Assembly: GCA_009914755.4 (NCBI GenBank)
Contig: CP086569.2
Coordinates: 50,688,001 to 50,752,000, forward strand
Direction of reading: 5' to 3'
DNA from: the human T2T-CHM13v2.0 reference genome, Homo sapiens
Length of the DNA: 64,000 nucleotides
Shown here: positions 1 through 64,000 of the stretch, piece after piece
Numbering within the stretch: the stretch's first letter is position 1
Layout: the number at the start of each line of letters is the position of its first letter
Notes under the pieces: generated by a model
Told to the model about the DNA's origin: nothing
The model's input: the letters and a program-made list of their open reading frames with translations, nothing else
Database searches by the model: none
Made by a program: the position numbers and the translations under genes

Positions 1-233
1 TGCTCACTGCAACTTCTGCCTCACGGGTCCAAGCGATTGTCGTCCCTCAGCCTCCCAGGTAGCTGGGACTACACCACACTGGGACTACACCAGCTGCCAC
101 CATGCCTAGCTAATTTTTTGGATTTTTAGTAGTGACAGCCTTTCACTGTATTGGCCAGGATGGTCTTGATCTCTTCACCTTGTGATCCCCTTGCCTTGGC
201 CTCCAAATTTGCTGGGATTACAGGCCTGAGCCA
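1..233 (-). mobile_element. Alu SINE fragment (antisense; 5' part cut by window start)
   Basis: ggccaggatggtcttgatctc...cctccaaatttgctgggattacaggcctgagcca is the reverse complement of the Alu left monomer (GGCTCA..CCTGTAATCCCAGC..TTGGGAGGC). Confidence 0.9.
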
Positions 234-2358
234 AGATCCATATTTTTTAAATGAAAAAAAATTTCAAAGGTACTCTGCTTGGTACAATAATCAAATGTAT
301 AAACTGAGGAATAAAACATAACCATGAAACCTACTTATAACTGCATATGGAAAATACAGAGGATAATTTTTTAAATAACATATTTTGAAAGCCTTAACTA
401 GTAATTTGAAGAGTTGGCATTTGAAAGGCCAGTATGAATATACCTTCAAAGCAGCAACACAGGTTCCCCATGAGAAAAAGCAAACACAGGGGAAATAAAA
501 ACACAAAGGTTCAATCTCTTCTGACCTTTGAAAGACACAGCACAGACAGTGGTCCTTAGGACGAAGAGCAGGAGACCCCTAATTCCGTCACCATGGCGAT
601 AGGGCATAAACATTGCTGGGTGAGGGCACAATCCACATTGTGAGGTCCAACTGCTGCCAGGAAGACAGGAGTGCTTTTACATAGACCGAAAGGTCATTGA
701 AGGCTCAGAGTTTTGTTTCAAGAACTGAATCCCAAGCCCACACGTTATTAGGCTGCGCTTCTTAAAACAAGTTATGAGATGGGAAAAAGGGCACCCACAA
801 ACATACGTATACATTATGTATATAATAATATACAGTATCATATATATAATATATATAACCTATGTATAATATTGTTTTACATCCTGCATCTTATGTTATA
901 TATATTGTATAAAATATAATAATTGATAATATATAAGTTTTATAATTATACAATATGACATATAGTATATATTATAATTTATGACATATATAATATATGT
1001 TATATATAATATATAGAATATATTATACGGTTAATATACGTATTAAATATAAATTATACATTATATATATTATATATAATATATCTGTTATATATAATAC
1101 CCATTATGCATAATATATATATTATGTCTATGTTATATATAGTATAAAACAACATATAATAATATATAATTGTATATAAAATGCGACATATAATATATAT
1201 TATATTTTATAACATATGTACTATATATTATATATTATATATAATACGTTGTATGTATAATACCTATATTAAATATATATTATATGACTATGTTATTAAT
1301 TACATGTCACATGTGTTATATATTATATATTTTACATAGAATATACCGGTTACATACAATATATACTATGTTACCTATAATGTATAATTTATTACATGTA
1401 AAATAAAGAATGCAATATATTATGTATAATTTATAATATACAATATGTGGAATGTGATATATATAACATATAATATATGATATATGATATACAGTATATG
1501 ATATATAACATACAACATATGATTCCTAATATATATGGTATACAATATATATTTTATGATATGTATTCTATATGTTTTATGTTCTGTTATATATAACTAT
1601 TTGAAATTATATATAACTGTATAATATTTTATGTAAATATGTAATATAATATATATAACTATATAATATATTATATATAACTATATATTATGTTATATAT
1701 ACTTTTATAACATAATTTACATAAAATATCATAATATAATATATATTATATTATTTCATATTACATAATATATATTACATATCACCCAATATAACTAACA
1801 TACATAATATTATAATATAGATTATATTGTGTTTTATTAAATATCATATATATCATGTATCATATATTCTATAATATATATTACACATTATATAATATGT
1901 ATATTGTCTATTATGTGATATATATAACTCTATATATAATTATATTTTTATACATATAACTAGATAAACATGTAATTCTACATATTTTCATTTATAATAT
2001 GTAGAATTATATAATCATATATAATTATTTATATTCTATAAAAATTTTATCATTATATAAATTATAATATATAAAAATTGTAATATGTACTACAAATATA
2101 TATATTATATATCATATATGATATAGTACCTTTGTTATATATCATAATACATATAAATGTGTATTATGTTATCTATAATTATATAATTTCATATATAAGA
2201 TGTATAATATGTATCATATATTATATATGTTATGTAATATATATAGTATATATAAGATGACACAGGATAAATATTATATACTATGACATATAAAATATAT
2301 GAGGTTATATGTTACATATAAGGCATAGCACATAACATGTAATATATATCATATATAA
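1..2358. repeat. Unit 0 (partial; window opens 59 bp inside the Alu), subfamily A
   Basis: Subfamily A markers are present: aaatgaaaaaaaatttc, ctgcatatggaaaatac, and cttatgttatatatattg in the TA block. Confidence 0.9.
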
Positions 2359-2650
2359 TTTTTTTTTAGACAGAATCTTGTCCTGTTGCACAGGGTGGGG
2401 TACAATGGCGCCATCTTTGCTCACTGCAACTTCTGCCTCACGGGTCCAAGCGATTGTCCTCCCTCAGCCTCCCAGGTAGCTGGGACTACACCACACTGGG
2501 ACTACACCAGCTGCCACCATGCCTAGCTAATTTTTTGGATTTTTAGTAGTGACAGCCTTTCACTGTATTGGCCAGGATAGTCTTGATCTCTTCACCTTGT
2601 GATCCCCTTGCCTTGGCCTCCAAATTTGCTGGGATTACAGGCCTGAGCCA
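2359..2650 (-). mobile_element. Alu SINE, antisense, ~292 bp incl. 9-nt A-tail (seen as poly-T), 5'-truncated ~12 bp, CpG-decayed
   Basis: tttttttttagacagaatcttgtcc..gctcactgcaac..cctcagcctcccaggtagctgggactaca..ctagctaattttttggatttttagtag..ggccaggatggtcttgatctc..gctgggattacaggcctgagcca aligns to the reverse complement of the Alu consensus. Internal 15-bp duplication gggactacaccacactgggactacacca. Confidence 0.92.
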
Positions 2651-60697: not shown

Positions 60698-62825
60698 AGA
60701 TCCATATTTTTTAAAAGAAAAAAAATTTCAAAGGTACTCTGCTTGGTACAATAATCAAATGTATAAACTGAGGAATAAAACATAACCATGAAACCTACTT
60801 ATAACTGTATACGGAAAATACAGAGGATAATTTTTTAAATAACATATTTTGAAAGCCTTAACTAGTAATTTGAAGAGTTGGCATTTGAAAGGCCAGTATG
60901 AATATACCTTCAAAGCAGCAACACAGGTTCCCCATGAGAAAAAGCAAATTCAGGGAAAATAAAACCACAAAGGTTCAATCTCTTCTGACCTTTGAAAGAC
61001 ACAGCACAGACAGTGGTCCTTAGGACGAAGAGCAGGAGACCCCTAATTCCGTCACCATGGTGATAGGGCATAAACATTGCTGGGTGAGGGCACAATCCAC
61101 ATTGTGAGGTCCAACTGCTGCCAGGAAGACAGGAGTGCTTTTACATAGACCGAAAGGTCATTGAAGGCTCAGAGTTTTGTTTCAAGAACTGAATCCCAAG
61201 CCCACACGTTATTAGGCTGCGCTTCTTAAAACAAGTTATGAGATGGGAAAAAGGGCACCCACAAACATATGTATACATTATGTATATAATAATATACAGT
61301 ATCATATATAAAATATGTATAACCTATGTATAATATTGTTATACATCCTGCATCTTATATTATATATATTGTATAAAATATAATAATTGATAATATATAA
61401 GTTTTATATTTATACAATATGACATATAGTATATATTATAATTTATGACATATATAATATATGTTATATATCATATATAGAATGTATTATACGGTTAATA
61501 TACGTATTAAATATAAATTATACATTATATATATTATATATAATATATCTGTTATATATAATACCCATTATGCATAATATATATGTTATGTCTATGTTAT
61601 ATATAGTATAAAACAACATATAATAATATATAATTGTATATATAAAATGCGACATATAATATATATTATATTTTGTGATATATGTAATATATATTATATA
61701 TTATATATAATACCTTGTATGTATAATACCTATATTAAATATATATTATATGACTATGTTATTAATTACATGTCACATATGTTATATATTATATATTTTA
61801 CATAGAATATACCGGTTACATACAATATATACTGTTACCTATAATGTATAATTGATTACATGTAAAATAAAGAATGCAATATATTGTGTACAATTTATAA
61901 TATACAATATGTAGAATGTGATATATATAACATATAATGTATGATATAAGATATACAGTATATGATATATAACATACAATATATGATACCTAATATATAT
62001 GGTATACAATATATATTTTATGATATGTATTCTATATGTTTTATATTCTGTTATATATAACTATTTGAAATTATATATAACTGTATAATATTTTATGTAA
62101 ATATGTAATATAATATATATAACCATATAATATATTATATATAACTATATATTATGTTATATATACTTTTATAACATAATTTACATAAAATATCATAATA
62201 TAATATATATTATATTATTTCATATTACATAATATATATTACATATCACCCAATATAATTAACATACATAATATTATAATGTAGATTATATTATGTTATA
62301 TTAAATATCATATATATCATGTATCATATATTCTATAATATATATTATACATTATATAATATGTATGTTGTCTATTATGTGATATATATAACTATATATA
62401 TATAATTATATTATTATACATATAACTAGATAAACATGTAATTCGACATATTTTCATTTATAATATATAGAATTATATAATCATATATAATTATTTATAT
62501 TCTATAAAAAATTATATCATTATATAAATTATAATATATAAAAATTATAACATGTACTACAAATATATATATTATATATCATATATGATATAGCACCTTT
62601 GTTATATATCATAATACATACAAATGTGTATTATGTTATCTATAATTTTAAAATTTCATATATAAGATGTATAATATGTATTATATATTATATATGTTAT
62701 GTAATATATATAGTATATATAAGATGACACAGGATAAATATTATATACTATGACATATAAAATATATGAGGTTATATGTTACGTATAAGGCATAGCACAT
62801 AACACGTAATATATATCATATATAA
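60406..62825. repeat. Unit 25, subfamily B0, 2420 bp (copy of unit 10)
   Basis: Shares gtcgtgttg, ttttgagattttatt and ataccttgtatg with unit 10. Confidence 0.9.
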
Positions 62826-63117
62826 TTTTTTTTTAGACAGAGTCTTGTCCTGTTGCACAGGGTGGAGTACAATGACGCCATCTTTGCTCACTGCAACATC
62901 TGCCTCACGGGTCCAAGCGATTGTCCTCCCTCAGCCTCCCAGGTAGCTGGGACTACACCACACTGGGACTACACCAGCTGCCACCATACCTAGCTAATTT
63001 TTTGGGATTTTATTAGTGACAGCGTTTCACTGTATTTGCCAGGATGGTCTTGATCTCTTCACCTTGTGATCCCCTTGCCTTGGCCTCCAAATTTGCTGGG
63101 ATTACAGGCCTGAGCCA
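62826..63117 (-). mobile_element. Alu SINE copy (antisense), B-type
   Basis: Positional copy of the 26535 Alu (atgacgcc, ccatacctagc, tgtatttgcc). Confidence 0.9.
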
Positions 63118-64000
63118 AGATCCATATTTTTTAAAAGAAAAAAAATTTCAAAGGTACTCTGCTTGGTACAATAATCAAATGTATAAACTGAGGAATAAAA
63201 CATAACCATGAAACCTACTTATAACTGTATACGGAAAATACAGAGGATAATTTTTTAAATAACATATTTTGAAAGCCTTAACTAGTAATTTGAAGAGTTG
63301 GCATTTGAAAGGCCAGTTTGAATATACCTTCAAAGCATCAACACAGGTTCCCCATGAGAAAAAGCAAACTCAGGGAAAATAAAACCACAAAGGTTCAATC
63401 TCTTCTGACCTTTGAAAGACACAGCACAGACAGTGGTCCTTAGGACGAAGAGCAGGAGACCCCTAATTCCGTCACCATGGCGATAGGGCATAAACATTGC
63501 TGGGTGAGGGCACAATCCACATTGTGAGGTCCAACTGCTGCCAGGAAGACAGGAGTGCTTTTACATAGACCGAAAGGTCATTGAAGGCTCAGAGTTTTGT
63601 TTCAAGAACTGAATCCCAAGCCCACACGTTATTAGGCTGCGCTTCTTAAAACAAGTTATGAGATGGGAAAAAGGGCACCCACAAACATTCGTATACATTA
63701 TTTATATAATAATATACAGTATCATATATATAATATATATAACCTATGTATAATATTGTTTTACATCCTGCATCTTATAATATATATATTGTATAAAATA
63801 TAATAATTGATAATATATAAGTTTTATATTTATACAATATGACATATAGTATATATTATAATTTATGACATATATAATATATGTTATATATCATATATAG
63901 AATATATTATACGGTTAATATACGTATTAAATATAAATTATACATTGTATATATTATATATTATATATCTGTTATATATAATACCCATTATGCATAATAT
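62826..64000. repeat. Unit 26 (partial, cut by window end), subfamily B1 (copy of unit 11)
   Basis: Shares ccagtttgaata and caaagcatcaacac with unit 11. Confidence 0.88.

What the first reader, a model, noticed from the sequence alone, without database searches (positions are those of the whole stretch)
1..64000. Whole window is one primate macrosatellite-like array of a composite Alu + unique + TA-rich 2.42-kb unit
About 26.4 head-to-tail copies of a 2,412-2,420-bp unit fill all 64 kb. Each unit has the same three parts: an antisense Alu of ~292 bp, a non-repetitive segment of ~570 bp, and a TA-rich block of ~1.56 kb. Copies are about 95-99.8% identical by eye. The array runs off both window edges, so it is longer than 64 kb. 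I cannot match it from memory to named human macrosatellites such as D4Z4, DXZ4, RS447, SST1 or the 5S composite, none of whose hallmark sequences appear. Because Alu is primate-specific, the sequence is eukaryotic. There are no bacterial genes here, and any prokaryotic 'system' annotation would be spurious.
Basis: partly seen in the sequence, partly recalled or inferred. Interest (0 to 1): 0.6.

Follow-up and report, generated by a model that had tools for sequence, protein, structure and literature searches.

The report
Human DYZ2 (HSat1B) satellite array

Summary
The window is 26.45 head-to-tail copies of a 2,412-2,420-bp unit with three parts: an antisense, 5'-truncated Alu, a ~565-bp segment of 39% GC, and a 1.56-kb block that is 86% AT. 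It was wrong that it matches no named repeat. This is DYZ2 = HSat1B = HSATI, described in 1984 as the male-specific 2.47-kb satellite I repeat with one Alu per unit.

Evidence:
- The window consensus is exactly 2,420 bp, the length of the published Yq12 DYZ2 consensus.
- 2,413-bp variants occur, the commonest published length.
- GC is 24.6% and CpG is 1 per 135 bp (published: 24%, 1 per 150 bp).
- The Alu is about 77% identical to AluY (published: about 20% diverged).
- Every unit is 98.0-99.2% identical to the consensus.
- The 40-nt target of a published Yq-specific probe occurs once per unit: 26 exact, 1 with two mismatches.

Short contigs of the same unit sit in 17 unrelated bacterial assemblies, the known human-contamination pattern. 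Placement on the Y rather than an acrocentric short arm is likely but unproven. Inside the window there is a 15-unit (36.3-kb) duplication and a homogenised central block, as expected from unequal sister-chromatid exchange.

Novelty: already known.

The parts
1..64000 (.). DYZ2/HSat1B tandem array: 26.45 units of 2,412-2,420 bp, open at both ends
   Evidence: Autocorrelation and anchor spacing; alignment of 25 units with a 2,420-bp consensus; the probe 40-mer occurs once per unit, 27 times in all.
2360..2650 (-). Alu part of one example unit: antisense, 5'-truncated (Alu positions 13-288 of AluY), about 77% identical to AluY/AluSx, poly-T at the low-coordinate end, with a 14-nt internal duplication
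   Evidence: Local alignment scores 241-250 against a shuffle maximum of 24. The only Rfam hit is the Alu-derived mir-1268, below its gathering score.
2651..3217 (+). GC-richer, non-repetitive segment of the example unit (the part RepeatMasker labels 'HSATI', as described in the literature), about 39% GC, ending just before ACATACG
   Evidence: Composition; description in Hallast 2023 read; lowest density of variable columns, 5.3 per 100 bp.
3218..4776 (+). AT-rich block of the example unit (86% AT), starting at the ACATACG junction and containing an internal ~228-bp 1.9-copy repeat
2626..2665 (+). 40-nt target of the published Yq-specific padlock probe 'Y-chrom', spanning the junction between the truncated Alu and the HSATI segment; a DraI site TTTAAA lies just 3' of it
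   Evidence: Probe arms from Table 1 of PMC2212658; 26 exact and 1 two-mismatch matches, 0 expected by chance; DraI sites in the consensus at 304 and 428.
24116..50734 (.). Homogenised central block, units 10-20, 98.7-100% identical to each other; units 13, 15 and 17 differ by only 1-2 nt (a two-unit sub-period)
   Evidence: Identity matrix; pairwise differences.
15732..27709 (.). First copy of a 15-unit (36,291-bp) tandem duplication
   Evidence: At lag 36,291 there are 28 mismatches in 11,978 bp, 99.77% identity.
52023..64000 (.). Second copy of the 36,291-bp duplication, cut off by the window end
19283..21695 (.). Example of a 2,413-bp length variant (7-bp TATATAT deletion in the AT-rich block); units at 14451 and 55574 carry the same deletion
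   Evidence: Indel columns 1282-1288. 2,413 bp is the commonest DYZ2 length in Hallast 2023.

Best explanation
The window is part of a human DYZ2 (HSat1B, RepeatMasker 'HSATI') satellite array, most probably from the Yq12 heterochromatin of the Y chromosome. It is non-coding constitutive heterochromatin. An ancestral composite was amplified head to tail: an AluY-like element that lost its first 12 bases, plus adjacent GC-richer sequence, plus an AT-rich stretch. The array is kept homogeneous and changes in copy number by unequal exchange between sister chromatids, with some gene conversion.

Shown here: the sequence identity with DYZ2, the array structure, and the nested duplications. Inferred from the literature: the exchange mechanism and the chromosomal location. 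If this window came from a microbial or metagenomic data set, it is host (human male) DNA.
For: 1. Anatomy matches the published DYZ2 description point by point. The unit is ~2.4-2.5 kb with three parts: a 5'-truncated ancient AluY about 20% diverged, a more GC-rich HSATI part, and a region over 85% AT (Hallast 2023 and Rhie 2023, read). Measured here: Alu positions 13-288 at 77% identity, 39% GC middle segment, 86.4% AT block.
2. The window consensus is exactly 2,420 bp, and 2,412/2,413-bp variants occur. Hallast's final Yq12 consensus is 2,420 bp and their commonest unit is 2,413 bp.
3. ACATACG lies at the junction of the HSATI and AT-rich parts, as published.
4. GC is 24.6% and CpG is 1 per 135 bp. 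Published values are 24% and 1 per 150 bp.
5. Each unit is 98.0-99.2% identical to the window consensus. Rhie reports most Y units above 98% identical to the consensus.
6. Direct sequence test. A padlock probe designed from the Frommer 1984 sequence labelled only Yq (PMC2212658). Its 40-nt target occurs once per unit, 26 exact and 1 with 2 mismatches, with 0 expected by chance. The DraI site used in that protocol lies just 3' of it.
7. Independent copies exist elsewhere. Seventeen unrelated bacterial assemblies carry 312-2,497-bp contigs made entirely of this unit, 92.7-99.1% identical to the window consensus. This is the HSat1B contamination described by Rhie. Two collapsed contigs close on themselves with a period of 2,420. 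Window units are 97.8-99.3% identical to one of them, L001.
8. Signs of unequal exchange: a 36,291-bp (15-unit) duplication at 99.77% identity, an 11-unit homogenised block, and alternate units that differ by 1-2 nt.
Against: No reference sequence (T2T-Y, Dfam DF0000210) was available, so identity rests on a 40-nt published sequence, published metrics and contaminant copies, not on a full-length alignment to a named record.

The window contains no DYZ1 block or unique flank, so Y linkage is not shown directly. HSat1B also occurs on the acrocentric short arms and chr10.

In Hallast 2023, 2,413-bp units are the commonest on the Y (46.8%). Here 2,420-bp units predominate (16 of 25 full units), and the 2,413-bp variants arise from a 7-bp deletion inside the AT-rich block. 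The published 7-nt difference is at the HSATI/AT-rich junction, so the length match may be partly coincidental or reflect how units were delimited.

Confidence: 0.95

Rival explanations
1. It is HSat1B, but from an autosomal array (short arm of chr13, 14, 15, 21 or 22, or chr10) and not from Yq12.
For: HSat1B exists on the acrocentric short arms and chr10. The window has no DYZ1 block or flank to anchor it. Units of 2,420 bp, not 2,413 bp, predominate here.
Against: The Y holds about 14 Mb of DYZ2, and the autosomes only 'smaller amounts'. The window consensus has the same length as the Y-derived consensus. Units are at least 98% identical to the consensus, like the homogenised Y copies. The window is 97.8-99.3% identical to the majority-type collapsed contaminant copies with period 2,420, and only about 88% identical to a diverged 2,390-bp subfamily, L034, which could be the autosomal type. 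That last step is inference.
Confidence: 0.12
2. It is the orthologous satellite of a non-human ape rather than human.
For: Related sequences in higher primates are part of the classical literature (from my own knowledge of Cooke et al. 1982; not checked here). No species label is available for the window.
Against: The human-derived 40-nt probe target matches exactly in 26 of 27 units. The consensus length equals the human Yq12 consensus. Window units are about 98-99% identical to contaminant copies in bacterial assemblies, which are far more likely to be human.
Confidence: 0.02
3. It is a new, unnamed primate macrosatellite.
For: That was not retested here.
Against: Every measured feature matches the named satellite DYZ2/HSat1B, including a published 40-nt sequence across its diagnostic Alu/HSATI junction.
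Confidence: 0.01
4. It is a prokaryotic, phage or plasmid element, since the same sequence occurs in contigs labelled as bacterial.
For: Contigs in 17 bacterial assemblies and 27 stretches of metagenome contigs carry the exact 40-mer.
Against: Those bacterial contigs are 312-2,497 bp, come from unrelated phyla, and consist of the repeat unit alone with no flanking bacterial sequence. Rhie 2023 documents exactly this as human contamination. The unit contains an Alu. There is no ORF longer than 74 aa, no Pfam hit, no plasmid hit and no viral-contig hit.
Confidence: 0.003

Closest known systems
[quoted passage not shown]
   Same: Unit length and consensus (2,420 bp). Tripartite structure: 5'-truncated, ~20% diverged AluY, then the GC-richer HSATI part, then a block over 85% AT. 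24% GC and low CpG density. At least 98% identity to the consensus. ACATACG at the junction. Exact 40-nt probe target. Local homogenisation and nested duplications.
   Different: Nothing substantive. In this stretch 2,420-bp units outnumber 2,413-bp units, and the 7-bp length variant lies inside the AT-rich block. Chromosomal placement (Y or acrocentric) is not shown by the window itself.
HSat1A (SAR), the other 'satellite I' family
   Same: Extremely AT-rich human classical satellite, isolated in the same density fraction.
   Different: HSat1A is a 42-bp repeat with no Alu. The window has a 2.4-kb composite unit with one Alu. It is not a member.
DYZ1 (HSat3A6), the partner satellite of Yq12
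   Same: It alternates with DYZ2 in blocks on Yq12 and has the same evolutionary dynamics. An HSat3/DYZ2 junction was seen in the unrelated contig L031.
   Different: DYZ1 is a ~3.5-3.6-kb unit built of (CATTC)n-derived pentamers with 38% GC. No such sequence is in the window.
Human macrosatellites (D4Z4, DXZ4, RS447, SST1, composite repeats such as 5SRNA_Comp)
   Same: Kilobase-scale tandem units; some are composites that include transposon fragments.
   Different: Several contain genes, which this unit does not, and their copy numbers are tens to hundreds, not thousands.

Membership tests
DYZ2 / HSat1B (HSATI) | Head-to-tail tandem array of a ~2.4-2.5-kb unit | tested here: met
   26 anchors spaced 2,412-2,420 bp apart; lag-2,420 identity 0.743 against 0.315 background. 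Literature values read.
DYZ2 / HSat1B (HSATI) | One 5'-truncated, ancient (~20% diverged) AluY-like element per unit | tested here: met
   Alu positions 13-288 (AluY), 77% identity counting gaps, one per unit.
DYZ2 / HSat1B (HSATI) | Extremely AT-rich region (over 85% AT) plus a more GC-rich region | tested here: met
   1,562 bp at 86.4% AT; 562 bp at 39% GC.
DYZ2 / HSat1B (HSATI) | Consensus of 2,420 bp with frequent 2,413-bp units; ACATACG at the HSATI/AT-rich junction | tested here: met
   Window consensus is 2,420 bp. Two units are 2,413 bp and one is 2,412 bp, all three sharing the same 7-bp deletion. ACATACG is at consensus position 859, and the 24-nt junction occurs 27 times with at most 2 mismatches. 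Caveat: the 7-bp deletion seen here is inside the AT-rich block, not at the junction.
DYZ2 / HSat1B (HSATI) | About 24% GC and about 1 CpG per 150 bp | tested here: met
   24.6% GC and 1 CpG per 135 bp, against the values in Hallast 2023.
DYZ2 / HSat1B (HSATI) | Sequence identity with the published male-specific satellite I sequence | tested here: met
   Only 40 nt of published sequence were available: the target of the Yq-specific padlock probe (PMC2212658). It matches exactly in 26 of 27 units.
DYZ2 / HSat1B (HSATI) | Full-length alignment to Dfam HSATI (DF0000210) or to HSat1B annotations of T2T-CHM13v2.0 | not testable with these tools
Yq12 location (DYZ2 in the strict sense) | Male-specific; array alternates with DYZ1 (HSat3) blocks on Yq12 | not testable with these tools
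   The array runs off both window ends with no DYZ1 or flank. Indirect support only: the window is of the majority 2,420-bp type, and the literature says HSat1B is almost entirely on the Y.
Yq12 location (DYZ2 in the strict sense) | Units more than 98% identical to the consensus, with homogenised centres and nested duplications | tested here: met
   98.0-99.2% identity to the window consensus; homogenised block of units 10-20; 36,291-bp duplication. Whether acrocentric arrays can show the same pattern was not tested.
Prokaryotic gene system of any kind | Protein-coding genes or known RNA genes | tested here: not met
   Longest ORF is 74 aa. The five ORFs scanned had no Pfam hit at E <= 0.1. 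The only Rfam hit is an Alu-derived one below its gathering score.

The most novel reading that the evidence does not exclude
The window might come from an HSat1B array outside Yq12 (an acrocentric short arm, chr10, or a non-human ape), or from a Y haplotype whose local 15-unit (36.3-kb) and 2-unit superstructure has not been catalogued. At most that would add a data point on how HSat1B arrays seed and homogenise on different chromosomes.
Probability: 0.12. Interest if true: 0.12.

Novelty: already known. Interest (0 to 1): 0.05.

Why it matters
As biology it adds nothing new. DYZ2/HSat1B has been known since the 1970s-80s and is now fully assembled in many Y chromosomes.

Its practical value is for the scan. 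The window should be flagged as human (probably male) DNA and left out of any search for prokaryotic systems. The same repeat was found as short contaminant contigs in 17 species-representative bacterial assemblies and in many metagenome contigs. A simple filter on this unit, for example the 40-mer across the Alu/HSATI junction, would remove a recurrent source of false 'novel repeat' findings.

Tried and rejected
- Rfam scan of one unit: the only hit was mir-1268 (33.9 bits against a gathering score of 83), which is an Alu-derived family. It is not an RNA gene.
- ORF and Pfam control: no ORF longer than 74 aa in the window and no Pfam hits.
- Plasmid megablast and viral-contig scan: no match.
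- I tried to read Frommer et al. 1984 (PMC318713) to obtain the original sequence. It is not held.
- I looked for FISH or PCR primer sequences for HSat1B in the T2T-Y preprint. None are given in the text.
- I looked for the DYZ2 consensus sequence in the Hallast supplement. It has descriptions only, no sequence.
- I expected the 2,413-bp units to lack the junctional ACATACG described by Hallast. They do not. They carry a 7-bp TATATAT deletion about 420 bp into the AT-rich block, so that specific equivalence is rejected.
- From the consensus, a HaeIII digest would give a 2,146-bp fragment (sites at 211, 256, 281 and 485). From memory this fits the classical ~2.1-kb male-specific HaeIII band. 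I found no held paper stating this for DYZ2, so it is offered only as a recollection.
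Full report

Yes. Base identity of the window against itself at lag 2,420 is 0.743, against a background of 0.315 +/- 0.015. Further peaks fall at 4,840, 7,260 and so on. A 24-nt anchor at the poly-T end of the Alu recurs 26 times, spaced 2,412-2,420 bp apart. That gives 25 complete units and two in-phase partial units, or 26.45 copies, and the array runs off both ends.

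MAFFT alignment of the 25 units gives 2,424 columns and a consensus of exactly 2,420 bp. Pairwise identity is 96.8-99.96%, median 97.4%. Each unit is 98.0-99.2% identical to the consensus. TRF, limited to periods of 500 or less, sees only an internal 228-230-bp, 1.9-copy repeat in the AT-rich block of each unit.

**2. Anatomy of the unit**

- **Alu.** The reverse complement of 2360-2650 aligns to positions 13-288 of AluY or 13-289 of AluSx at about 77% identity, with scores of 241-250. The best of 100 shuffles scored 24. The Alu is antisense on the + strand, has lost its first 12 bases, and carries a 14-nt internal duplication. The only Rfam hit is the Alu-derived family mir-1268, below its gathering score.
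- **Middle segment.** About 565 bp at 39% GC.
- **AT-rich block.** 1,562 bp at 86.4% AT, beginning at ACATACG.
- **Whole window.** 24.6% GC, with one CpG per 135 bp.
- **Coding potential.** The longest ORF in 64 kb is 74 aa. Five representative ORFs have no Pfam hit.

**3. What it is**

The anatomy is that of the human satellite DYZ2 = HSat1B = RepeatMasker HSATI.

Hallast et al. [quoted passage not shown] Their figures are:
- 24% GC and 1 CpG per 150 bp;
- a commonest unit length of 2,413 bp;
- a final consensus of 2,420 bp that includes ACATACG at the HSATI/AT-rich junction.

Rhie et al. [quoted passage not shown] Altemose et al. and Lopes et al. [quoted passage not shown] 1984. Every one of these measurable features is met in the window.

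**4. A direct sequence test**

Lohmann et al. 2007 (PMC2212658) designed a padlock probe, 'Y-chrom', from the Frommer 1984 sequence. [quoted passage not shown] Joining its two arms gives the 40-nt target TTGCTGGGATTACAGGCCTGAGCCAAGATCCATATTTTTT. This target spans the junction between the truncated Alu and the HSATI segment, which is diagnostic of the composite unit.

It occurs 27 times in the window, once per unit. Twenty-six matches are exact and one has two mismatches; none is expected by chance. The DraI site used in their protocol (TTTAAA) lies just 3' of the target.

**5. Independent copies elsewhere**

The same 40-mer was found in:
- 17 short contigs (312-2,497 bp) of taxonomically unrelated bacterial assemblies, including Mycobacterium, Bifidobacterium, Vibrio, Streptomyces and Azospirillum;
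- 27 stretches of metagenome contigs;
- no viral contigs.

The bacterial contigs consist wholly of this unit, at 92.7-99.1% identity to the window consensus. This is the pattern Rhie et al. reported as human HSat1B contamination of bacterial RefSeq.

Two collapsed contigs, L001 and L039, end in 77-bp and 127-bp self-overlaps that give a period of exactly 2,420. Window units are 97.8-99.3% identical to L001. They are only about 88% identical to a diverged subfamily with period 2,390, L034. So the window belongs to the majority subfamily. According to the literature HSat1B is 'almost entirely on the Y', with about 14 Mb in T2T-Y, so the majority subfamily should be the Yq12 one. This last step is inference. 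HSat1B also occurs on the acrocentric short arms and chr10, and the window has no DYZ1 block or unique flank to anchor it.

**6. How it works**

This is non-coding constitutive heterochromatin. [quoted passage not shown] Array centres are homogenised, array edges are more diverged, and there are nested duplications of up to megabases.

The window shows the same pattern at small scale:
- Units 10-20 (24116-50734) form a block 98.7-100% identical to each other.
- Within that block, units 13, 15 and 17 differ by 1-2 nt while their neighbours differ by 6-9 nt. This indicates recent duplication of 4,840-bp dimers.
- The stretch 15732-27709 is repeated at 52023-64000, a lag of 36,291 bp or 15 units, with only 28 mismatches in 11,978 bp.

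Variable columns are about half as dense in the HSATI segment (5.3 per 100 bp) as in the Alu (10.5) and the AT-rich block (11.0). The duplications are shown directly. The exchange mechanism is inferred.

**7. Caveats**

- No human reference genome or Dfam library was available. The identification rests on 40 nt of published sequence, a set of published metrics and contaminant copies, not on a full-length alignment to a named record.
- The 2,413-bp units here arise from a 7-bp TATATAT deletion inside the AT-rich block. The published 7-nt difference is at the junction. The length agreement for that variant should therefore not be over-read.
- The predicted 2,146-bp HaeIII fragment fits my recollection of the classical ~2.1-kb male-specific HaeIII band. 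I could not verify this in a held paper.

**8. Verdict**

It is the long-known DYZ2/HSat1B satellite, most likely from human Yq12.

Novelty: already known. Interest is low. The only practical point is that such windows, and the many short contaminant contigs of the same repeat in microbial databases, should be filtered out as human DNA.

Noticed in passing
L001-L017 (genome contigs): Seventeen species-representative bacterial assemblies from unrelated phyla hold short contigs (312-2,497 bp) made entirely of the DYZ2 unit, 92.7-99.1% identical to the window consensus. Examples are LZSC01000004.1 Mycobacterium sp., NZ_QLZA01000025.1 Bifidobacterium tibiigranuli and NZ_SATR01000405.1 Vibrio ouci. 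This is human contamination still present in public genomes.
   Followed up: partly
L001 1-2497; L039 1-2547: Both contigs end in exact self-overlaps, 77 bp and 127 bp. They are tandem repeats collapsed by short-read assemblers, and both give a period of exactly 2,420 bp.
   Followed up: yes
L034 1-2445 (OGIJ01006428.1): A collapsed HSat1B-like unit with a 55-bp self-overlap and a period of 2,390 bp. It is only about 88-91% identical to the window units. It is a diverged subfamily, possibly the acrocentric or autosomal type.
   Followed up: partly
L031 18-4096 and 4379-5892 (BNJU01004413.1, a 54.6-kb metagenome contig): About 4 kb of (GGAAT)n, HSat3/DYZ1-like, lies about 280 bp before a DYZ2 unit. 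This is a satellite-block junction of the Yq12 (or chr15p) type inside a metagenome contig. The long contigs BNJT01002008.1 and BNJU01004413.1 look like noisy long-read assemblies of human DNA.
   Followed up: partly
window 15732-27709 and 52023-64000: A 15-unit (36,291-bp) tandem duplication at 99.77% identity. Its left edge falls at the site of the 7-bp TATATAT indel in unit 6.
   Followed up: yes
window 31376-43475: Alternate units (13, 15, 17) differ by 1-2 nt, while adjacent units differ by 6-9 nt. This is a two-unit (4,840-bp) sub-period inside the homogenised block.
   Followed up: partly
window 3309-3744, and the same place in other units: The AT-rich block contains an internal ~228-230-bp repeat of 1.8-1.9 copies at about 76% identity. 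This suggests the block itself grew by older internal duplication.
   Followed up: no
window 2480-2507: The Alu part carries a 14-nt internal tandem duplication (CTGGGACTACACCA twice), seen as an insertion relative to the Alu consensus.
   Followed up: no
window 12297-12336: Unit 5 (starting at 12031) is the only unit whose probe target is mutated, GGG to TTG, two mismatches.
   Followed up: no
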